From contig CAVRVY010000004.1 in the NCBI GenBank assembly GCA_963724765.1, positions 1,664,001 to 1,728,000 of the forward strand: a DNA stretch of 64,000 nucleotides. Reading direction: 5' to 3'. The DNA comes from an uncultured delta proteobacterium. GTDB lineage: Bacteria; Desulfobacterota; Binatia; Binatales; Binataceae. How positions within the stretch are numbered: the first letter of the stretch is position 1; every line of letters starts with the position of its first letter. Below are positions 47,125 to 56,125 of the stretch, in pieces. The notes beneath the pieces were generated by a model. It was not told the DNA's origin and did no database searches. It saw nothing but the letters and a program-made list of their open reading frames with translations. A program made the translations under genes and the position numbers.

Positions 47125-47140
47125 CGGCACGATGTTCGCT
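47125..47140 (+). promoter_or_regulatory. Sigma-54 promoter
   Basis: CGGCACGATGTTCGCT upstream of the hydrolase-LLM-cox gene run. Confidence 0.62.
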
Positions 47141-48029: not shown

Positions 48030-49352
48030 ATGCACATAATGTGGTTTACCGAGCGCTCGTACAGCATTCACTTGTCCGAAGATGAGGTTCTGAGAAACCG
48101 CAGTTTCTTCGGCATATCGAATAAATATTTCGATCCGCCCAAGGGCGCCAAACTACTCAATCAGTACCTCGACGAAAAGATCTATTCGGAGGAGCTGGGA
48201 TTCGATGGGGTAATGCTCAACGAGCATCATGGCACACCCTTTTGCCTCGGCGCAGTCATGGACGTTGAGGCTGCGATCCTGGCCAGGACTACCAAAAAAG
48301 TGAAGATCGTGCTGCTCGGCAATCCGACGCCGACGGTTTCCAATCCGCTTCGGCTCGGTGAAGAGCTTGCAATGATAGACCTGATATCCGGAGGTCGCCT
48401 AGTTCCAGGATGGGTCCGCGGGGCTGGCAGCGAGCAGCTGGCGAACAATTCAAACCCGGCCTACAACCGCGAATATTTCGACGAAGCGCACGACCTTATC
48501 CTGAAGTCATGGACCACGCCCGGACCATTTCGCTGGGAAGGCAAACACTTTCACTTTCGTTTCGTCAATCCATGGGTGCTTCCGCTGCAGAAGCCGCACC
48601 CACCGATTTGGATTCCCGGCCTAGTGAGCCCGGAAACCGTTGTCTGGTCGGCGCGCCATCGCTATCCGTACGTCGCGCTAGCGACCTACCTGCAACCCAC
48701 GACTGAGTTATGGAACATGTATACAGCGGCGGCCGCGCAGGAGGGCTACCAAGCCGGGCCCGAGAACTTTGGCTACCTGCAGCCGATCTTCGTCGCGAGC
48801 AACCAAGCCAAGGCCGAGGAAATGGGCAAACGTTTTCTGTTCGGCGGCGGCTTTTCCAATTTTGCCCGGCCCGAATGGATGTTCCCGTCAGGATACAACT
48901 CAAAGGAAGCGACCCGACGGCTGGCTCGTCAGTTCGCGAATCCGAATCAGCCCGGTAAAACGATCATGCCGGCGGACCAGAACGCTTCGGGCGAGACGGT
49001 CGACATACAGGCGGCCAAAAAAGCGCTCTATGCCGACTACGATCAGTGGCAAAAGAACTACCAGATGATTGCCGGCACGCCGAAGAACGTGATCCCTAAG
49101 CTGCGCAAGGTCCTGGAAGTATTGCGCCCCGGCATCTTCTCGTTTTGGCTCGACGGCCCCATTCCGAAAGCCGACCGAATCTCGTGCCTGAAATTGCTGG
49201 CAGAAGAAGTGGTCCCGGCTTTACGCGAGATTGGAAAAGAACTCGAGCTGCTGGATCCGTTCCAGCGCAAGCCGGGATCGCGCTCACTTCCGGCGAGCGG
49301 CAGACCGGAGATGGTGGCGCGGCCCGAAGCGTTGGCGGCGCTCAGCGCGTAA
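48030..49352 (+). CDS. LLM-class flavin-dependent oxidoreductase
   Basis: GFDGVMLNEHH, PLRLGEELAMIDLISGGRL, PLQKPHPPIWIPG. Confidence 0.92.
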   Translation: MHIMWFTERSYSIHLSEDEVLRNRSFFGISNKYFDPPKGAKLLNQYLDEKIYSEELGFDGVMLNEHHGTPFCLGAVMDVEAAILARTTKKVKIVLLGNPTPTVSNPLRLGEELAMIDLISGGRLVPGWVRGAGSEQLANNSNPAYNREYFDEAHDLILKSWTTPGPFRWEGKHFHFRFVNPWVLPLQKPHPPIWIPGLVSPETVVWSARHRYPYVALATYLQPTTELWNMYTAAAAQEGYQAGPENFGYLQPIFVASNQAKAEEMGKRFLFGGGFSNFARPEWMFPSGYNSKEATRRLARQFANPNQPGKTIMPADQNASGETVDIQAAKKALYADYDQWQKNYQMIAGTPKNVIPKLRKVLEVLRPGIFSFWLDGPIPKADRISCLKLLAEEVVPALREIGKELELLDPFQRKPGSRSLPASGRPEMVARPEALAALSA

Positions 49353-49458: not shown

Positions 49459-50181
49459 TTGCAAATGCTGATGCACTGGCTCCCGCTTGACGTTTCGACC
49501 TTCGGTCCGAGCGTTGACTACGTCTTTCGCTTGATTCTTTACGTGGTCGGCGCGTGGTTCATCGTGGCCGAGGGCGCAATACTCTATTTCGCCTTCCGGT
49601 TTCGTCAGCGACCAGGCCGAGCTGCCGCCCACCTTCGCGGCGACAATTTCAAGCAGCTCGCCTGGATTCTGGTTCCAGCTCTGGTCGTAGTGATGTTCGA
49701 TTTTGGTATCGACGTAGCGGCTGGACACGCATGGGAAGAAATCAAGCTCGAATCGCCTCCGCCTGCCTTGAACGTCAGCGTAACTGCCGAGCGGTTTGCG
49801 TGGATTTTCGACTACCCCGGCCCGGATGGAAAATACGGGACACCCGATGACTATTGGTCGATGGCCAAGCTCTATGTTCCGGTTAACCAGATAGTACGCC
49901 TGAATATGCGCTCGATGGACGTGATTCACAGTTTTGCGGTGCCGAATTTGCGCCTGCGACAGGATGTAGTTCCCGGCCGCACGATCTCCGCCTGGTTCAA
50001 AGCGACCAAACCCGGCAGCTACGAGATCGAGTGCACTGAGTTGTGCGGGTTCGACCATTACAGGATGCAGGGTTCCCTGGTAGTGCTGAACGAGACTGAG
50101 TATACCCGATGGCAGCATGAGCACTGGCCATCCATCGCCGCAAAGCCGGCTTCCGCTGATAACACTGGAGTGAAGCAATGA
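49459..50181 (+). CDS. coxB: Cytochrome c oxidase subunit II (CuA)
   Basis: Two TM helices, DVIHSF, CTELCGFDHYRM CuA motif. Confidence 0.95.
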   Translation: MQMLMHWLPLDVSTFGPSVDYVFRLILYVVGAWFIVAEGAILYFAFRFRQRPGRAAAHLRGDNFKQLAWILVPALVVVMFDFGIDVAAGHAWEEIKLESPPPALNVSVTAERFAWIFDYPGPDGKYGTPDDYWSMAKLYVPVNQIVRLNMRSMDVIHSFAVPNLRLRQDVVPGRTISAWFKATKPGSYEIECTELCGFDHYRMQGSLVVLNETEYTRWQHEHWPSIAAKPASADNTGVKQ

Positions 50182-51902
50182 GCCAGGCCACGGTACATCG
50201 AAAGAGCGCCGACTTTGAACATCTCGAAGAGCTGAGCTTTGTTCGGAAATATGTATTCTCTAGCGATCATAAGACGATCGCGAAACAGTATCTTGGCATA
50301 AGCCTCTTCATGGCGATGGTCGGGGGTTTTACTGCCTACGCGATACGCTGGCAGCTCGCGTGGCCCTCTGCTCATATTCCGGGAATGGGCGTCATTACTC
50401 CTGACGCTTACAACACGCTGGTAACCATGCATGGCACCATCATGGTTTTCTTCGTGGCAATGCCACTGTTACTGGGCGTGTTTGGCAACTTCTGTATTCC
50501 GCTGATGGTAGGGGCGGGCGACATGGCTTTCCCCCGGCTCAACATGGTGTCGGTGTGGACGCTTTTCGTTGGCGCCCTGATACTTTTTGCCAGCTTCTTC
50601 GTGCCCGGCGGCGCGGCGGCCGCGGGATGGACCGCGTACGCGCCGCTTTCAGCTAATCCTAGCCTAACTCCCGCGGTGCTAGGTCAGGACATGTGGATTC
50701 TGGCGCTCGCGCTTGAATTCTCCTCGTTTCTAATGGGCGGAGTGAATTTCGTCACCACCGCGCTGAACATGCGCGCGCCTGGGATGGGACTGTGGCGGCT
50801 GCCGTTGCTGGTCTGGTACGAGATCACGGCAAGCGTGCTGTTTTTGCTCTCTGTGGGGCCGCTGATCGGTGGTGCGGTGATGCTGTTGCTCGATCGTTTG
50901 GTTGGCGCGGGGTTCTTTCTGCCGGCCAAGGGCGGAGATCCGTTGCTGTGGGAGCATCTGTTCTGGTTCTTCGGGCATCCCGAGGTCTACGTGGTAGCGT
51001 TGCCCGGCTTCGGAATCATGCTTGAAATTTTGCCGGTCTTCGCACGCAAGCCAGTCTTCGCTTATCGCGCACTGGTGTACTGCGCGCTGACGACGACAGG
51101 TCTCAGTCTAATCGTCTGGGCGCATCACATGTTCATCAGCGGAATGGACCCGAGACTGGCGACTCCGTTCACCGTTACGACGATTCTGATCTCGGTGCCG
51201 TTCGCGGTGATTGTATTCGCGATGATCGCAACGCTGTGGGGCGGCGCCATCAGGTTCGACACACCGATGCTGTTCGCACTAGGTGGCCTTACGAGCTTTC
51301 TGCTCGGCGGCGTGACCGGCATTTTCCTCGGTTCGGCCGCGACCGACATATACCTGCACGGAACCTACTTTGTCGTGGCGCACTTCCATTACACCCTCTT
51401 CCCGGTCACGTTCTTCGCCGGGTTTGCAGGACTCTACTATTGGTACCCAAAGATATTCGGGCGCATGATGAACGAGACATTGGGCAAGGTACACTTCTGG
51501 GTGACAATGCTCACGTTTCAGGGTGTGTTCCTTCCGCTGTTTCTCTCCGGAATCGCCGGAACACCGCGCCGCGTATTCGCTCCCAATGAATACCCGCTGT
51601 TCCATTCAATTCAGCCGCTCCAGGTGCACTCGACCATCTTAGCGGTCGTCTTACTGCTGGGGCAGATTCCATTCGTTGTAAATTTCTTCTGGAGTCTCGC
51701 ACGTGGCAAGCAGGCCGAGGAGAATCCGTGGCTCGCCAACACGCTCGAGTGGAGCGTGGCTTCTCCGCCGCCTCACGAAAATTTCGGGAGGACACCGCGC
51801 GTGAGTCGCTGGCCTTACGAGTATAGTGCGCCCGGCGCCAAGCTTGACTGGAAGCCGCAGGCCGAACAGGTCGATATGACTCTTCCCGCGGCCGGCCGGT
51901 AA
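50178..51902 (+). CDS. coxA: Heme-copper oxidase subunit I, A1-type signature with atypical K-channel
   Basis: TMHG, DMAFPRLN, WFFGHPEVY, WAHHM, AHFHY, PRR. Confidence 0.95.
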   Translation: MSQATVHRKSADFEHLEELSFVRKYVFSSDHKTIAKQYLGISLFMAMVGGFTAYAIRWQLAWPSAHIPGMGVITPDAYNTLVTMHGTIMVFFVAMPLLLGVFGNFCIPLMVGAGDMAFPRLNMVSVWTLFVGALILFASFFVPGGAAAAGWTAYAPLSANPSLTPAVLGQDMWILALALEFSSFLMGGVNFVTTALNMRAPGMGLWRLPLLVWYEITASVLFLLSVGPLIGGAVMLLLDRLVGAGFFLPAKGGDPLLWEHLFWFFGHPEVYVVALPGFGIMLEILPVFARKPVFAYRALVYCALTTTGLSLIVWAHHMFISGMDPRLATPFTVTTILISVPFAVIVFAMIATLWGGAIRFDTPMLFALGGLTSFLLGGVTGIFLGSAATDIYLHGTYFVVAHFHYTLFPVTFFAGFAGLYYWYPKIFGRMMNETLGKVHFWVTMLTFQGVFLPLFLSGIAGTPRRVFAPNEYPLFHSIQPLQVHSTILAVVLLLGQIPFVVNFFWSLARGKQAEENPWLANTLEWSVASPPPHENFGRTPRVSRWPYEYSAPGAKLDWKPQAEQVDMTLPAAGR

Positions 51903-51963: not shown

Positions 51964-52569
51964 ATGGAAGCGACGACTAACCTCCAGGTTGCTACGAGGC
52001 TTGGCGGCGGCGACTCGATTCGAAGCATTCCGGCCGCCCGGCTCGCGCTCTGGTTGTTTCTTGCCTCCGAGATAATGATTTTTGGGGGCCTGATATCGTG
52101 TTTCATTCTTCTTCGCATAGCGCATGGAGGTTGGAACGCCGAGGCGGCGCACGTCCACTGGCGCATCGGCGCCTTCAACACGCTTGTTCTCCTTACCAGC
52201 AGTCTCACGATGGCCCTGGCATGCACCGGCGCCAAAGAGGGAATGACCCGCCGGGTGAGAACCTGCCTCGCTCTCACGATTGTGCTTGGGATGACGTTCC
52301 TGGGCGTCAAAGCCTACGAATATTCTCTCGAAGTCTCCAAGGGTCTGACGCCGGGAGCTGGGCCGTTCTGGGCGTTCTACTACACATTGACCGGCCTGCA
52401 CTCATTACACGTGCTAGCGGGGATCATCCTGAACACCACACTCTGGATCGCCGCGGGACGGACACAAATGTGGTCTTTGGTGCAACGCCGGATTGAATAC
52501 GCTGGTCTCTACTGGCACTTCGTCGACGTTGTGTGGATCTTTCTTTTCCCTCTCGTTTACCTGAGCTGA
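51964..52569 (+). CDS. coxC: Cytochrome c oxidase subunit III
   Basis: WLFLASE, NTLVLLTSS, LTGLH..HV, LYWHFVDVVWIFLFP. Confidence 0.93.
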   Translation: MEATTNLQVATRLGGGDSIRSIPAARLALWLFLASEIMIFGGLISCFILLRIAHGGWNAEAAHVHWRIGAFNTLVLLTSSLTMALACTGAKEGMTRRVRTCLALTIVLGMTFLGVKAYEYSLEVSKGLTPGAGPFWAFYYTLTGLHSLHVLAGIILNTTLWIAAGRTQMWSLVQRRIEYAGLYWHFVDVVWIFLFPLVYLS

Positions 52570-52580
52570 GGAGGCGGCGC

Positions 52581-52883
52581 ATGGTTAGTTCGATACGAGA
52601 GCAATCGGTACACGCCGGAGGAACGGCGCTGGACCTTCGAATCTGGGCGTGGTTGGTGGGGCTGCTAATCGCGGGGTTGACGGTGTTCGTCATGCCTATC
52701 CCGAAGATCGCGGCGATCGGACTCGTATTCGCGGCGGCGATCATAAAGGCCGCATTGGTGGTGCGTAAGTACATGCATCTCGAAGCGGCACACTGGCTAC
52801 TGTACGTGATCGCACTCGTTCCGGTGTTCCTGATCATAGCCATGGCGGTCGCATTGCTACCGGATATCGCTCTCAGACAATGA
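52581..52883 (+). CDS. Cytochrome c oxidase subunit IV family
   Basis: Three TM helices, KAALVV..YMHL. Confidence 0.85.
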   Translation: MVSSIREQSVHAGGTALDLRIWAWLVGLLIAGLTVFVMPIPKIAAIGLVFAAAIIKAALVVRKYMHLEAAHWLLYVIALVPVFLIIAMAVALLPDIALRQ

Positions 52884-53527
52884 GACTGGCGCTGCGATCC
52901 CAGACTTCTGTCGACGCACTCGCGACTGCGCAAGTTTTGCAGCCCGTCGAAAGCGAGGAAGAGATCGGCGGGGCGAGCCCGATTGCGAGCAACGTGCTTG
53001 CGGTCGCCATCTTCATCGCTTCTGAAGTCATGCTCTTCGGCGGGCTGCTGAGCTCCTTCATGATTTTGCGCGCCGAGAATTCCCAATGGCCGCCCGTCGG
53101 TCAGCCGCGCCTCCCGCTCCAGGTTACGACGCTCAACAGCCTTATCCTGTTTGCTAGCTGCTGGACCGTCATCCGCGCGGTAGGAGCAGCAAGAAACGGT
53201 CAACGCGACGCATTAATCAATCGGCTTTCGTGGACGCTGCTGCTCGGCGCAGTATTTCTTTTGGTTCAGGGTTCCGAATGGGTTCGGCTGATTCATTTCG
53301 GCCTTACCGTGAGCTCGAGCGTCTATGGCGGCCTCTTCTACACGTTGGTCGGCATACATGCGGTCCACGTGATAGGCGCGGTGGTGGCTCTGTGTGTCGT
53401 GCTCCGGCTCGCGCGACAGGGCCGTTACTTGCCCGGTGATTACAGCGGCGTGGTCGCCTGCTCATTGTACTGGTGTTTCGTCGTGCTGCTCTGGGGGGTG
53501 ATCTATGTCACTGTCTATCTCGGTTAG
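52880..53527 (+). CDS. Second subunit III-like protein
   Basis: FIASEVMLFGGL, WPP.GQPRLP, LVGIHAVHV, YWCFV. Confidence 0.9.
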   Translation: MRLALRSQTSVDALATAQVLQPVESEEEIGGASPIASNVLAVAIFIASEVMLFGGLLSSFMILRAENSQWPPVGQPRLPLQVTTLNSLILFASCWTVIRAVGAARNGQRDALINRLSWTLLLGAVFLLVQGSEWVRLIHFGLTVSSSVYGGLFYTLVGIHAVHVIGAVVALCVVLRLARQGRYLPGDYSGVVACSLYWCFVVLLWGVIYVTVYLG

Positions 53528-53528
53528 G

Positions 53529-53780
53529 ATGGCCCGGTTGCTGGCGGCGGAGATTGGCGTATCGCTGATACCGACGACTGTTCTCGCGTGTCCCTTCTGC
53601 TACGCAGCCAGCAATCCACGCACGCTGCATGCCTTTTACGTCAGCACGGCCGCGCTGACGCTTATGCCGCTCATGTTGATAGCTGGCTTCGCTATATGGA
53701 TTTCACGAGCTTACAACAATCCCAAAATCCGCCGCGGCCAGTCCACGGCGGCGACGACGACATCATCGGTCGAACGATGA
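53529..53780 (+). CDS. Small exported or membrane-anchored CxxC protein
   Basis: Signal-like segment ending VLA, then CPFC and one TM helix; coupled to its neighbours. Confidence 0.7.
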   Translation: MARLLAAEIGVSLIPTTVLACPFCYAASNPRTLHAFYVSTAALTLMPLMLIAGFAIWISRAYNNPKIRRGQSTAATTTSSVER

Positions 53781-54328
53781 GTGCTCCAGTTTCCGAAGAA
53801 AGTATGTCGGCGTTTGCTGAACGTCGTCGCTCGCTCCTGAACTTTTATTGGGAGATCGAAATCCAAGGTCTTCGGCTTGTCTTCGCGATGCTGAGGCAAC
53901 TCGAGGACGAGGATTCACTGGCCAATCTCACCCGACTGGCCGCCGACGAGGCGCGGCATGTATGGCTGTTAAGTAAAAAGATCGTCGATCTTGGCGGCAC
54001 GCCGATGCCTGATAGCCGGGCCCATCGGACGCGCAGGGCCCAGATGGTGAGAATTCCGAAGGACGCGGCCGAGTTGCTGGCCGTGGTGGTGGCGGCGAAA
54101 GAGCGAGCTTACAACCGCTACACGATGGAGTCCTCCCCCGAAGATCTGACGCTCGCCGAATTGCGCCGAACGATCGGCGAGGACGAAAAATCGCATTTGG
54201 CCTGGCTCAAGCAGAAGCTCGCGCGCGTCAGCGGCGAACAGCATTCGCTGGGCCGCGTCGAGAGTTACCTGGCAGCGGAACAGGCAGTATATGCTGCCTT
54301 CACCACAGCACAGCCGCACTCCTGGTAA
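53777..54328 (+). CDS. Ferritin-like (di-iron four-helix bundle) protein
   Basis: EIEIQG...DEARH...KE...DEKSH; ATGA overlap with the upstream gene. Confidence 0.8.
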   Translation: MSAPVSEESMSAFAERRRSLLNFYWEIEIQGLRLVFAMLRQLEDEDSLANLTRLAADEARHVWLLSKKIVDLGGTPMPDSRAHRTRRAQMVRIPKDAAELLAVVVAAKERAYNRYTMESSPEDLTLAELRRTIGEDEKSHLAWLKQKLARVSGEQHSLGRVESYLAAEQAVYAAFTTAQPHSW

Positions 54329-54390: not shown

Positions 54391-55920
54391 ATGATGACGA
54401 AGAAAGCCGATTCTCCGCGCGAGACGCGCCACGAGGCCGGGCCTCCGTACTTTGATCTTCTTTGGGATAGCGATCTCAACGAGTTGATCCCGCTCCTCAA
54501 CGCCATCGCGCATAGCCGCCAGCAGGTACTTGAACGCTGGCACGATCTCTACCTCCTTTATTTCGGCGATAGGCGGGCACTGTCCCGCGCCGACTTCTTT
54601 CGAATATACGGTGCGGACCTCGATGCGACTGTGAAGGGCTTTCGCGAGAAAGCGATGGACCGCTTCGTTGACGAGATCAGCCGGATCGGTGAGCTACTGG
54701 TTGTAAACAATGTCCCTTTTTCAGAAGTTGTAGTCTCGATGCATCTGTTCGAGGAAAGCGCGAGCGCCACCTTTCCGCCTGACGCGCCATCCGACGTCTA
54801 CCGTCTGTTCGACAAGATCAGCCATTGCCGCACGGTGATCCTGGCCGAGACATATTTCCGCTCTCGGAAGGCGACTTCGGCCGTGCGTATTCGGCAGTTG
54901 GAGAAGGAAGCGGGTCAACTGCCTACTGGGATTAGGGCGCGCTTTCATGGTCTGGTCGGAGCAAGTTCGCCTATGCGGCGTCTGTACGAGCTGATTGAAG
55001 CCGCGGCCGGTGTGCGCAGCACGGTCTTGCTCGTTGGGGAGACTGGCAGCGGCAAGGAACTTGTCGCGCGCGCACTCCACGAGTGCTCGGCCGCCGCGCG
55101 CGGTCCCTTCGTGGCGCTCAATTGCGCCGCGGTTCCGCGTGATCTCATCGAGAGCGAACTGTTCGGTCACAAGCGAGGCGCGTTCAGCGGCGCGACCGGC
55201 GACTATGCAGGACTGTTTCGTGCGGCAGAGGGCGGAACGCTTTTTCTCGATGAGATCACCGAGATGAGCGCCGAGACCCAGAGCAAGCTTCTGCGTGCGA
55301 TACAAGAGCGCACCGTGCGGCCCGTGGGCGCAACCAGCGAAGTGTCGGTCAATGCCAGGCTGGTAGCCTCGACCAACCGCGACCCGCAAGTCGCCACCCA
55401 GGAGGGACGCCTGCGCGAGGACCTCTATTATCGGCTCCATGTCAACGTTCTGCGTGTGCCATCTCTGCGCGAGCGGCTCGACGACATTCCCCTGCTGGTT
55501 GATCATTTTGTCCAGCTCTTTAACGAACGGCTGGAGCGAAGAATTCCGATCATGGAGGTTGAGCCAGAGGCGCTGGAAGCCTTGCAGCGCCACCTCTGGC
55601 CGGGGAACGTTCGCGAACTGGCGAATATCATCGAGGCGGCGTTTACTTTCAATTCCTCAGAGTCGATCGGACTCAAAGATTTGCCGGAAGCGATCAGCGA
55701 TCGCGTTCATACGGCACCGCCTAACAGCTTAAAGGCCGGCACCGCTCTCAACCTGGCTGAGACTGAGCGTGATGTGATCTCTCGCGCGCTCGAAAGCGCG
55801 AAGGGTAACAAATGCCGCGCGGCCGAATTGTTGGGAATCTCGAGGAAGATGCTTTACGCACGGATTGCAAAATATCGTCTTGCTTCGCCACGGTACTCGA
55901 AGCAACGCAAGCGGGTTTAA
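54391..55920 (+). CDS. Sigma-54 enhancer-binding protein with an N-terminal all-helical (RsbR/globin-like) sensor
   Basis: [42 protein letters not shown], Fis-type HTH; no receiver Asp motif in the N-terminus. Confidence 0.9.
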
Positions 55921-56109: not shown

Positions 56110-56125
56110 CGGCACGATTGATGCT
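56110..56125 (+). promoter_or_regulatory. Sigma-54 promoter
   Basis: CGGCACGATTGATGCT 56 bp upstream of the LLM start. Confidence 0.65.

What the first reader, a model, noticed from the sequence alone, without database searches (positions are those of the whole stretch)
49459..51902. A1-type heme-copper oxidase that has lost the whole K proton channel in both subunits
Seen, by manual alignment to R. sphaeroides aa3 numbering: all six His ligands, HPEVY (E286, Y288), CuA and the D-channel (Y33, N121, D132, N139, S142, N207) are kept. Helix VIII reads ISVPFAVIVFAM instead of IAVPTGIKIFSW (T359F, K362I, S365A). Helix VI reads PGFGIMLEI (S299L). Subunit II reads NFKQLAW instead of xLEIxW (E101Q). 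The Mg ligand D412 is G (LHGTY). New acidic residues appear in helix IV (ALEFSS, near the S197 position) and helix V (VWYEIT). Known: the K-channel is nearly invariant in A-family oxidases, and K362M abolishes O2 turnover while keeping peroxidase activity. Inference: concerted hydrophobic replacement in an intact operon indicates a functionally distinct subfamily, such as a D-channel-only or rerouted oxidase, an H2O2 reductase, or an NO-related enzyme.
Basis: partly seen in the sequence, partly recalled or inferred. Interest (0 to 1): 0.88.

Follow-up and report, generated by a model that had tools for sequence, protein, structure and literature searches.

The report
Heme-copper oxidase lacking the K proton channel
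This soil bacterium carries an intact respiratory oxidase whose second proton channel is replaced by greasy residues and whose main channel has gained an extra acidic residue, and many relatives share these changes.

Summary
All six His ligands, E286, Y288 and the D-channel entrance are kept. The pattern is a clade feature. In 123 of 123 aligned close relatives residue 362 is I, L or M and 359 is F. dN/dS against the nearest relative is 0.08.

Two parts of the finding need correcting:
- **Subunit II E101Q is not clade-wide.** K-less operons show E in 19 rows, Q in 16 and L in 1.
- **The D-channel is not simply kept.** Its upper part is rebuilt: S197E, G198F, S201F.

The clade is derived. It sits inside a K-containing A-family lineage whose operons carry two subunit-III genes. 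Loss of K362 is also not unique. It changed at least 6-8 times on my trees. Degli Esposti and co-workers already described K-less COX1/COX2 in acidophilic iron oxidisers.

My best reading is a working O2 reductase that takes all its protons through a modified D-pathway, with E197 as an added relay. One 99%-complete relative has it as its only detected terminal oxidase. I class it as a new variant of a known kind. The mechanism is inferred, not shown.

The parts
49459..50181 (+). coxB-like subunit II (240 aa). The CuA centre is intact and there is no cytochrome c domain. The K-channel entry residue E101 is Q here.
   Evidence: PF00116 at 58.9 bits. The alignment to 2gsm_B shows Q at E101, H..CxExCxxxHxxM, and W at the electron-entry Trp. 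NCBIfam CoxB scores 139.3, below its cut-off of 147.7.
50178..51902 (+). coxA subunit I (574 aa), an A1-type (HPEVY) heme-copper oxidase. It carries F359, I362, A365, L299, S356 and M366 (K-pathway lining changed) and E197, F198, F201 and E232 (upper D-pathway and helix V changed).
   Evidence: PF00115 at 460.6 bits. PDB hits reach 1.5e-131. NCBIfam CtaD_CoxA scores 606.5, below its cut-off of 670.75.
51964..52569 (+). First subunit III-like gene (201 aa, the 5-helix CtaE/CyoC-like form).
   Evidence: PF00510 at 67.7 bits. NCBIfam CyoC and aa3_CtaE hits are below their cut-offs. It is syntenic in L006, L009, L010 and L011.
52533..52883 (+). Small subunit IV-like gene (116-aa ORF; the true start may lie later).
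   Evidence: PF03626 at 27.3 bits, just under its cut-off of 28.9. TIGR02229 caa3_sub_IV at 28.2, below its cut-off. Syntenic.
52880..53527 (+). Second subunit III-like gene (215 aa).
   Evidence: PF00510 at 89.5 bits. The two-subunit-III arrangement is shared with the K-containing sister operons L012, L159 and L160.
53529..53777 (+). Small membrane protein with a signal peptide, an AxA|C-x-x-C motif and one TM helix. It is a conserved operon member in both K-less and K-containing sister operons.
   Evidence: Alignment A1. An HMM built from it finds 34 loci. No Pfam or NCBIfam family matches.
53777..54328 (+). Ferritin/bacterioferritin-like four-helix protein. Its ATG overlaps the stop of the small ORF (ATGA).
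   Evidence: The overlap was read. Weak hits only: DUF455, Ferritin_2 and Rubrerythrin at E about 1e-3, and bacterioferritin 9viw_A at E 4.6e-4. Homologues lie beside coxB in L009 and L092.
54391..55920 (+). Sigma-54-dependent transcriptional activator with an uncharacterised 185-aa N-terminal domain. It may regulate the operon (inferred from position only).
   Evidence: PF00158 at 212.6 bits and HTH_8. A homologue lies next to the K-less operon in L010. The N-terminal domain has no family hit.

Best explanation
This is the catalytic core of a real, expressed-type operon: coxB-coxA-cox3-cox4-cox3, a small CxxC protein and a ferritin-like protein. It encodes a derived subfamily of A1-type heme-copper oxygen reductase found mainly in Binatia.

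Shown:
- The active site is that of an O2 reductase: six His ligands, E286, the cross-link Tyr in HPEVY, and CuA.
- The D-pathway entrance is intact.
- The side chains that make the K-pathway are replaced by hydrophobic ones throughout the clade: T359F, K362I/L/M, S299L, mostly S365A, and W366M.
- The K-pathway entry Glu of subunit II has lost its constraint and alternates between E and Q.
- The upper D-pathway has been rebuilt with an invariant new carboxylate, S197E, packed by G198F and S201F.

Inferred:
- The enzyme still reduces O2.
- It takes up all chemical and pumped protons through the modified D-pathway. E197 acts as an extra internal proton relay or reservoir below E286, which makes the K-pathway dispensable.
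- It would then be the mirror image of the B and C families, which use only a K-analogue channel.
For: 1. Residue assignments rest on gap-free HMMER alignments to solved structures and 24 of 24 consistent anchors.
2. Clade-wide conservation in 123 aligned homologues of 53-92% identity: F359 123, S356 123, residue 362 I/L/M 123, E197 122 (D 1), F198 123, F201 122. All catalytic and D-entrance residues are at 120-123 of 123. None of 85 K-containing sequences has E or D at 197.
3. Purifying selection: dN/dS is 0.078 against L090 (dS 0.40) and 0.106 against L091.
4. The loss is derived. On the careful ML tree of 65 rows the E/D197 clade has 100/100 support. It lies inside a 45-row clade (98/99) that also holds the K-containing Binatia, Acidobacteriota, Bacteroidota and Ralstonia/Neorhizobium ctaD enzymes.
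5. Constraint on E101(II) is relaxed only where K362 is lost. K-containing operons have E in 48 of 48 and 20 of 20. K-less operons have E 19, Q 16, L 1.
6. Physiological competence. In G327 (99% complete, 40 contigs) the K-less gene is the only PF00115 match, and no cytochrome bd (PF01654) was found. G399 (94% complete) shows the same.
7. Precedent. COX1 of acidophilic Fe-oxidisers has K354 replaced by Ile and COX2 E78 replaced, with the D-channel kept (10.1101/2020.03.01.968255, section 7). The coxBACD aa3 oxidase of A. ferrooxidans is the terminal O2-reducing enzyme of Fe(II) oxidation (PMC2754497, passages).
8. S197, S200 and S201 are D-channel-lining residues, and A356, S365 and W366 are K-channel-lining residues, in the R. 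sphaeroides structure (PMC10341450, methods passage).
Against: - No activity, expression or structure data exist for any member.
- No 3D coordinates were available to me. The position of E197 relative to E286, and the absence of a water-filled substitute channel, are inferred from sequence position only.
- K362M abolishes oxidase activity in R. sphaeroides while leaving peroxidase activity (PMC7601700, passage citing Vygodina 1998). A simple loss would therefore be expected to kill O2 turnover unless it is compensated.
- New hydroxyls line the former K-pathway region: S356 123/123, S327 123/123, T234 112/123. A re-lined channel is therefore not excluded.
- The window's own genome also has two canonical K-containing A-type oxidases and a qNOR-like gene. 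Here the K-less enzymes (two paralogues) are accessory.
- The absences in G327 and G399 come from draft genomes.
- The acidophile K-less enzymes could not be placed in my trees, because no named sequence of them was obtained.
Confidence: 0.55

Rival explanations
1. The K-pathway is not lost but re-lined. Protons still enter on the N-side near subunit II residue 101 and travel along waters held by new hydroxyls (S356, S327, T234, with T352 and Y288). This would resemble the lysine-free K-analogue channel of B-family oxidases.
For: - S356 is in 123/123, S327 in 123/123 and T234 in 112/123 of the clade. Among K-containing enzymes the figures are 1/85 for S356 and 31/85 for S327, and T234 is not among the four commonest residues at that position.
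- A356 and G327, together with helix V residues L227 and L238, are corners of the K-channel volume in R. sphaeroides (PMC10341450).
- S or T at 356 accompanies loss of K362 in about 6 of 8 independent pairs on the tree and never the reverse, median sign-test p 0.03.
- E101(II) is kept in about half of the operons.
- That B-family channels lack a lysine is recalled knowledge. It is consistent with PMC11214002, which describes the B-family K-channel by residues such as S309.
Against: - The lower half of the path is uniformly hydrophobic in the clade: L/M299, A365 in 99/123, M366 and V363.
- Bulky F359 and I/L/M362 sit in the centre of the path.
- E101 alternates freely with Q, which argues against an essential entry carboxylate.
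- In one search the trait's own columns were not removed from the tree alignment, and there are only 8 pairs.
Confidence: 0.18
2. The enzyme does not run the full oxidase cycle. It works mainly as a proton-pumping cytochrome c:H2O2 reductase, using the peroxidase half-cycle that needs only the D-pathway, or on another oxidant such as NO.
For: - K-channel mutants such as K362M lose oxidase activity but keep peroxidase activity, and that activity depends on the D-channel (PMC7601700, passage citing Vygodina 1998 and Konstantinov 1998).
- A ferritin/rubrerythrin-like gene is translationally coupled within the operon. Its homologues recur beside coxB in L009 and L092.
- In this genome canonical oxidases coexist with the K-less ones.
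Against: - The active site is unchanged from O2 reductases, including the cross-link Tyr. Known and proposed NOR families alter it and are related to the B or C families (PMC11214002, passages).
- G327 and G399 have this enzyme as their only detected HCO and no bd oxidase.
- K-less COX of A. ferrooxidans reduces O2 (PMC2754497 together with 10.1101/2020.03.01.968255).
- The ferritin-like hits are all below the family cut-offs.
Confidence: 0.1
3. Protons for the reductive phase come from the periplasmic (P) side through a remodelled Mg-site and exit-water region, as in cNOR. This would give a less electrogenic oxidase.
For: - The Mg ligand D412 is G in 109/123 of the clade. G412 also occurs in two other K-less lineages: the 'RG' group and P0141/P0147.
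- Other P-side changes are clade-wide: R343, P347 and H472F.
- That cNOR takes its protons from the periplasm is recalled knowledge. PMC11214002 says only that cNOR lacks conserved proton channels.
Against: - D412 is kept in 13/123 clade members and in the second paralogue of this genome (L003).
- The association of non-D/E412 with K-loss is not significant on the tree: about 3 pairs for and 1 against of 8, p about 0.6.
- No new polar chain was identified.
Confidence: 0.07
4. The gene is a decaying, non-functional paralogue.
For: The genome has two canonical A-type oxidases that could make this one redundant.
Against: - All frames are intact and the genes are translationally coupled.
- dN/dS is about 0.08-0.1.
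- Catalytic residues are conserved at 120-123 of 123.
- The same substitutions are fixed across at least 30 of 201 sampled Binatia genomes.
Confidence: 0.02

Closest known systems
Canonical A1-type aa3 cytochrome c oxidase (R. sphaeroides 1M56, P. denitrificans 1AR1, M. smegmatis 6ADQ)
   Same: The fold and length match (E 1e-112 to 1e-131). Also shared are the six His ligands, the HPEVY motif with E286 and Y288, the D-pathway entrance (Y33, N121, D132, N139, S142, N207), R481/R482, and CuA in subunit II.
   Different: - K-pathway residues T359, K362, S299, S365 and W366 are replaced by F, I/L/M, L, A and M.
- S197E, G198F and S201F change the upper D-pathway.
- D412G occurs in most members.
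- Scores are below the NCBIfam equivalog cut-offs.
The K-containing A-family lineage with two subunit-III-like genes (Binatia, Acidobacteriota and Bacteroidota 'VPSxxK..N' enzymes; ctaD of the Ralstonia and Neorhizobium replicons L159 and L160). Its link to alternative complex III and to Bradyrhizobium coxMNOP is recalled, not tested here.
   Same: These are the nearest relatives, at 44-53% identity, in the same 45-row clade (98/99). The operon plan is the same, with two COX3-like genes, a COX4-like gene and the small CxxC membrane protein.
   Different: They keep S/T359, K362, S299, N/S365, W/Y366 and E101(II) (48/48 and 20/20). They have F or L rather than E at 197.
K-channel-less COX of acidophilic Fe(II)-oxidisers and relatives (Acidithiobacillus coxBACD, Thioclava), described by Degli Esposti et al. 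2020/2021
   Same: The K-pathway Lys is replaced by a hydrophobic residue such as Ile. The subunit II entry Glu is substituted. The D-channel residues are conserved (10.1101/2020.03.01.968255, section 7). The Acidithiobacillus enzyme is a working terminal oxidase (PMC2754497).
   Different: - Those enzymes are described as A2-type and deep-branching. This clade is A1-type (E286) and nested in a K-containing lineage.
- The paper's main text does not mention E197/F198/F201 or Binatia: 'binat' occurs 0 times in PMC8239418.
- I could not place an acidophile sequence in my trees, and I could not see their supplementary figures S9-S11.
B-family (ba3) and C-family (cbb3) oxidases
   Same: They share the functional concept of a heme-copper O2 reductase that works with a single proton input pathway. 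This is recalled, and is also stated in 10.1101/2020.03.01.968255, section 7.
   Different: There the single pathway is the K-analogue and the D-pathway is absent. Here it would be the reverse. Sequence similarity is distant: ba3 at E about 1e-11 to 1e-13, cbb3 at 1e-6.

Membership tests
Heme-copper oxidoreductase superfamily, A-family, subunit I | COX1 fold with six invariant His: heme a ligands H102 and H421, heme a3 ligand H419, CuB ligands H284, H333 and H334 | tested here: met
   PF00115 at 460.6 bits. All six His are aligned. They are conserved in 122-123 of 123 clade members.
A-family, type A1 | HPEVY motif with E286 at the top of the D-pathway and the cross-link Tyr Y288 on helix VI | tested here: met
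   GHPEVY is present. E286 and Y288 are in 123/123.
A-family | D-pathway: D132, N121, N139, N207, S142, Y33, then S200, S201 and S197 up to E286 | tested here: inconclusive
   The entrance and Asn gate are in 123/123 and S200 in 120/123. However, S201 is F in 122/123, G198 is F in 123/123 and S197 is E in 122/123. The pathway is kept in its lower part and rebuilt in its upper part.
A-family | K-pathway: K362, T359, S299 and S365 in subunit I, and E101 in subunit II | tested here: not met
   The query has I362, F359, L299, A365 and Q101. In the clade, residue 362 is never K (0/123). E101 is E in 19 rows, Q in 16 and L in 1.
Cytochrome c oxidase (CuA-type) subunit II | Cupredoxin domain with CuA ligands H, C, (E), C, H, M and the electron-entry Trp | tested here: met
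   PF00116. IHSF...CTELCGFDHYRM and FAW align to R. sphaeroides and Thermus subunit II.
NCBIfam equivalogs CtaD_CoxA (TIGR02891) and CoxB (TIGR02866) | Score at or above the curated cut-off | tested here: not met
   606.5 against 670.75, and 139.3 against 147.7. Public records name relatives generically as 'cbb3-type cytochrome c oxidase subunit I'.
HCO-type NO reductases (cNOR, qNOR, eNOR, sNOR, gNOR, nNOR) | Altered active site: the cross-link Tyr is lost, or a Glu, Asp or FeB ligand is added. They are related to the B or C families. | tested here: not met
   The active-site residues are those of O2 reductases. The closest structures are A-family oxidases. The features of the NOR families were taken from PMC11214002 (passages).
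K-less COX group of Degli Esposti et al. | Membership of their deep-branching clade with the COX1 of acidophilic Fe-oxidisers | not testable with these tools
   No named Acidithiobacillus or Thioclava sequence could be obtained. P0156, tried as a proxy, proved to be a Chloroflexi type. Plasmid hits were K-containing. Supplements are closed.

The most novel reading that the evidence does not exclude
These enzymes would be natural peroxidase-cycle heme-copper enzymes. They would be proton-pumping cytochrome c:H2O2 (or other two-electron oxidant) reductases that never run the K-pathway-dependent reductive half of the oxidase cycle, teamed with an operon-encoded ferritin/rubrerythrin-like protein. 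That would be a new bioenergetic function for the A-family scaffold. A less radical but still new reading is that they are the first A-family oxidases to feed all eight protons per O2 through a two-glutamate D-pathway (E197 plus E286).
Probability: 0.08. Interest if true: 0.9.

Novelty: new variant of a known kind. Interest (0 to 1): 0.55.

Why it matters
The division of labour between the D- and K-pathways is central to models of proton pumping in cytochrome c oxidase. It has been studied almost entirely with laboratory mutants that cripple the enzyme.

This clade has run the K-knockout experiment in nature and stayed under strong purifying selection. It is large, appearing in at least 30 of 201 sampled Binatia genomes plus many metagenome sequences.

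It also has a precise candidate compensation: an invariant extra carboxylate at position 197, two bulky Phe in the upper D-pathway, and S356 in the former K-pathway lining. These give testable predictions. S197E, G198F, S201F and A356S could be transplanted into a K362M background of R. sphaeroides or P. denitrificans aa3.

A practical point follows for annotation. These genes fall below the NCBIfam equivalog cut-offs and are named 'cbb3-type' in public records. Metabolic reconstructions of Binatia and other soil and peat bacteria may therefore misjudge their oxidase repertoire.

Tried and rejected
**Small CxxC protein as a K-less signature: rejected.** phmmer with one sequence found the small CxxC membrane protein (53529-53777) only in K-less operons. 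An HMM built from six copies also found it in K-containing sister operons, 34 loci in all.

**Complex prediction of CoxA, CoxB and the small protein.** The verdict was 'no answer', score 0.00. This is not evidence either way.

**The look-up of sequencing runs.** No RNA holder was listed, so nothing can be said on expression. DNA holders were soil, peat and freshwater-sediment metagenomes. I did not lay reads.

**Anchoring the published acidophile K-less group.**
- P0156, an A2-type K-less representative, turned out to be a Chloroflexi lineage.
- The best tblastn plasmid hits I looked at (Ralstonia, Neorhizobium) were K-containing.

**Sigma-54 promoter search.** Window-wide, TGGCAC-N5-TTGC with up to 2 mismatches gave 54 matches against 65 expected, so not above chance. 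The two sites at 47125 and 56110 are only noted in passing. The sigma-70 and terminator scan was not above its shuffles.

**N-terminal domain of the sigma-54 activator.** No hit in Pfam, NCBIfam or the ESM Atlas.

**D412G as a companion of K-loss.** Not significant on the tree.

**E232 or E101(II) as an essential replacement carboxylate: rejected.** Both alternate with Q, and members with Q at both exist, for example G327.

My first R. sphaeroides numbering map was wrong, because mafft --keeplength dropped an insertion. I redid it.

**Structure prediction.** I did not run it. The tool returns no coordinates, so channel geometry could not be measured.

**Literature.**
- Searches for a K-less A-family description were. 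One search found nothing. One search found the Degli Esposti preprint.
- Searches for Binatia oxidases were. They found no statement on this clade.
- Supplementary figures S9-S11 of the preprint, and Supplementary Figure 7 of PMC8239418, list the K-less sequences. I could not see them, and they may already include relatives of this clade.


Full report
**What is there**

The finding's coordinates hold two overlapping genes on the + strand.
- The subunit II gene is at 49459-50181 (240 aa). It matches PF00116.
- The subunit I gene is at 50178-51902 (574 aa). It matches PF00115 at 460.6 bits.

They open an operon that continues as follows:
- a 5-helix subunit III-like gene (51964-52569);
- a subunit IV-like gene (52533-52883);
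- a second subunit III-like gene (52880-53527);
- a small signal-peptide/CxxC/one-TM protein (53529-53777);
- a ferritin-like protein (53777-54328), whose ATG overlaps the preceding stop.

A sigma-54 activator gene follows at 54391-55920. An alpha/beta hydrolase gene and a 440-aa luciferase-like monooxygenase gene precede the operon.

Public names of close homologues place the organism in Candidatus Binatia (Binataceae). The genome is 5.4 Mb in 4 contigs.

**Checking the observation**

HMMER aligns subunit I to solved A-family oxidases at E 1e-112 to 1e-131, with no gap across helices VI to X. To fix the numbering I used P0160. This Rhodobacteraceae-type sequence aligns to R. sphaeroides 1m56_A without gaps from residue 96 on. 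I added it to my 253-row alignment.

All 24 anchor residues from H102 to R482 give the same rule: query position + 17 equals R. sphaeroides number. My first attempt at this map was wrong and was discarded.

- T359F, K362I, S365A and S299L;
- D412G;
- a new Glu at 197 and a new Glu at 232.

All His ligands are kept, as are E286, Y288, Y33, N121, D132, N139, S142, N207 and R481/R482. Subunit II aligns to R. sphaeroides 2gsm_B and to Thermus caa3 with Q in place of E101, and its CuA ligands are intact.

**Is it a clade property?**

Yes, for subunit I. The 120 best hits among 5.8 billion proteins are 64-92% identical to the query. A helix VIII pattern matched 118 of these 120, and none of the 118 had Lys at 362. 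The other 2 did not match the pattern.

I then aligned 253 sequences that cover the domain. They came from 339 collected sequences, and I dropped those that did not cover query residues 40-520. Of the 253, 123 form the core clade.

| Position | Core clade (n = 123) |
|---|---|
| 359 | F 123 |
| 362 | I 49, L 40, M 34 |
| 356 | S 123 |
| 299 | L 114, M 6, Q 2, C 1 |
| 365 | A 99, S 22, C 2 |
| 366 | M 121 |
| 197 | E 122, D 1 |
| 198 | F 123 |
| 201 | F 122 |
| 232 | E 103, Q 20 |
| 412 | G 109, D 13, A 1 |

Catalytic and D-entrance residues are conserved at 120-123 of 123. Among the 85 K-containing rows in the same alignment, none has E or D at 197, one has S356, and 82 have S299.

Pairwise dN/dS of coxA is 0.078 against the closest relative (dS 0.40) and 0.106 against the next. 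More distant pairs are saturated. The pattern is therefore selected, not decay.

**Two corrections**

*First correction: subunit II.* Its Glu is not lost clade-wide. In 36 K-less operon rows the position is E in 19, Q in 16 and L in 1. L098 and L142 are the same locus fetched twice, and the L row is a truncated ORF. K-containing operons have E in 20 of 20 and in 48 of 48. The title's 'in both subunits' is true of this gene. For the clade, the right description is relaxed constraint on E101.

*Second correction: the D-pathway.* It is not simply kept.
- S197, S200 and S201 are D-channel-lining residues in the R. sphaeroides structure (PMC10341450, methods passage).
- In this clade S201 is Phe, G198 is Phe and S197 is Glu.
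- A356, S365, W366 and G327 line the K-channel in that same paper.
- Here they are S, A (mostly), M and S.

**Where it comes from**

A quick ML tree of 106 rows and a careful one of 65 rows with ultrafast bootstrap and SH-aLRT support agree.
- The E/D197 K-less clade is monophyletic (100/100).
- Its sister, with weaker support (92/81), is a second K-less group from Verrucomicrobiota and Omnitrophota with S359, I362 and C365.
- Both lie inside a 45-row clade (98/99). That clade also holds K-containing enzymes of Binatia themselves, Acidobacteriota and Bacteroidota.
- It also holds the ctaD genes on large Ralstonia and Neorhizobium replicons, whose annotated operons likewise carry two subunit III genes.

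For these trees I thinned the core clade to 16 or about 20 rows. I dropped four representatives that lacked a His ligand (P0149, P0229, P0242, P0258). With K-containing enzymes on both sides, loss of the K-pathway is the derived state. The root itself was not inferred.

**Distribution**

I sampled 201 Binatia genomes.
- I verified K-less copies by sequence in 29 genomes, the window's own among them (loci L090-L115, L117, L118).
- One more genome has a K-less copy of the S359/I362 type (L130).
- L116 (G076) was K-containing.
- Genomes with a single A-type oxidase in families f4, f106 and f108 carry the K-containing sister type (L119-L124, L131, L138).

The window's genome has five PF00115 genes:
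- two canonical genes with VPTGxK, one of them a I+III fusion;
- two K-less paralogues, this one and L003, which has D197, V201 and D412;
- one qNOR-like gene.

In G327 (99% complete, 40 contigs) the K-less gene is the only PF00115 match, and no cytochrome bd subunit I was found. G399 (94% complete, 400 contigs) gives the same result. The G327 enzyme has M362, Q232 and Q101(II). None of the three candidate carboxylate or lysine groups other than E197 is therefore needed.

**Is loss of K362 unusual?**

It is less unusual than the finding assumes. Among the 150 best cluster representatives out of 1.84 billion, several other lineages lack K362:
- an 'RG' group with F359 and R411-G412 (11 rows);
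- P0141 and P0147;
- P0148 and P0163;
- P0156, a Chloroflexi A2-type;
- a 13-row group with Q362, most of whose members also have E at N207;
- single Acidobacteriota or Bacteroidota genes (L054, L026, L082).

Parsimony needs at least 8 changes of the K state on the 106-row tree and 6 on the 65-row tree.

S or T at 356 goes with loss of K362 in about 6 of 8 independent pairs and never the other way (median p 0.03). In that test the trait's own columns were left in the tree alignment, and there are few pairs.

In print, Degli Esposti and co-workers reported the following:
- COX1 of acidophilic Fe(II)-oxidisers and relatives such as Thioclava has the K-pathway Lys replaced by hydrophobic residues.
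- COX2 has the entry Glu replaced.
- The D-channel is conserved (bioRxiv 10.1101/2020.03.01.968255, section 7, read in full).

The A. ferrooxidans coxBACD enzyme is the terminal O2-reducing oxidase of Fe(II) oxidation (PMC2754497, passages). 'Binat' does not occur in PMC8239418. I could not see the supplementary figures that list their K-less sequences.

**How it most likely works**

*Shown.* The enzyme has an O2-reductase active site, an intact D-entrance, a hydrophobic former K-pathway and an invariant new Glu in the upper D-pathway. It is under purifying selection. In at least one near-complete genome it is the only detected terminal oxidase.

*Inferred.* The enzyme reduces O2 and draws all protons through the D-pathway, with E197 as an added relay or reservoir below E286. 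I put this at about 0.55 overall. Within that:
- that it is a real subfamily is near certain;
- that it is an O2 reductase is about 0.7;
- the specific role of E197 is about 0.4.

*Rivals.*
- A re-lined, hydroxyl-based K-analogue using S356, S327 and T234 (0.18).
- A peroxidase-cycle or other-substrate enzyme (0.1). This rests on the fact that K362M keeps peroxidase but not oxidase activity (PMC7601700, passage), and on the coupled ferritin-like gene.
- P-side proton uptake through the altered Mg-site region (0.07).
- Decay (0.02).

No clade-specific Lys, Arg, His, Asp or Glu other than E197, E/Q232 and the P-side R343 appears in the transmembrane part.

**What I could not do**
- No coordinates were available, so channel geometry is inferred from sequence position and from published lists of lining residues.
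- No RNA data were found.
- The complex prediction for the small protein gave no verdict.

**Verdict**

This is a real and well-conserved K-pathway-less variant of an A1-type oxidase. It has its own signature (E197, F198, F201, S356, M366). It is derived within a K-containing lineage, and as far as my searches reach this clade has not been described. The general phenomenon is already in print, and K362 is lost repeatedly in the family. I rate it a new variant of a known kind, interest 0.55.

Noticed in passing
window 53529-53777; also L006, L009, L010, L011, L093, L161 and 28 further loci: A small unannotated protein has a signal peptide ending AxA, a mature N-terminus of C-x-x-C-[FGK], and one TM helix. 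It sits at the end of cox operons of the two-subunit-III A-family lineage, both K-less and K-containing. It matches no Pfam or NCBIfam family. It may be an undescribed small subunit or a copper/redox accessory.
   Followed up: partly
window 53777-54328; L009 5551-6273; L092 3-632: A ferritin/bacterioferritin/rubrerythrin-like protein, with only sub-threshold hits, is translationally coupled to the cox operon here. Its homologues lie directly upstream of coxB in two other K-less operons.
   Followed up: partly
representatives P0159, P0166, P0172, P0176, P0180, P0190, P0205, P0218, P0246, P0247, P0260 (and P0162 with H362): This separate A-family group consists of proteins of about 650-860 aa (mostly about 840). 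It has K362 replaced by Gln (His in one member). In most members N207 is replaced by Glu and N121 and N139 are altered. It is another K-less lineage that gained a D-channel carboxylate.
   Followed up: no
alignment, tree: Ser or Thr at position 356, a K-channel-lining residue that is Ala or Gly in K-containing enzymes, recurs in nearly every independent K-less lineage. This suggests convergent compensation.
   Followed up: partly
window 47125-47139 and 56110-56124: Two GG-N10-GC sigma-54-like sites share the sequence CGGCACGAT. They lie about 75-90 nt upstream of the hydrolase-monooxygenase-cox gene string and of a second luciferase-like monooxygenase gene. They flank a sigma-54 activator gene. 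Window-wide, such matches are not above chance.
   Followed up: partly
G000 C1:254592-256253 (L003/L006): The same genome holds a second K-less operon with the same gene order. Its subunit I has D197, V201 and M362 and keeps D412, and its subunit II keeps E101. It belongs to a subclade nested in the E197 clade.
   Followed up: yes
L112 (G309:C26): One member of the I359/M362 K-less subgroup reads HGY in place of HEY, so E286 is replaced by Gly. The other seven members of that subgroup I looked at keep E286.
   Followed up: no
window 48030-49352: A 440-aa luciferase-like monooxygenase and an alpha/beta hydrolase lie directly upstream of coxB on the same strand. The gap to coxB is 106 nt and no terminator scored above chance, so co-transcription with the oxidase is possible.
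   Followed up: no
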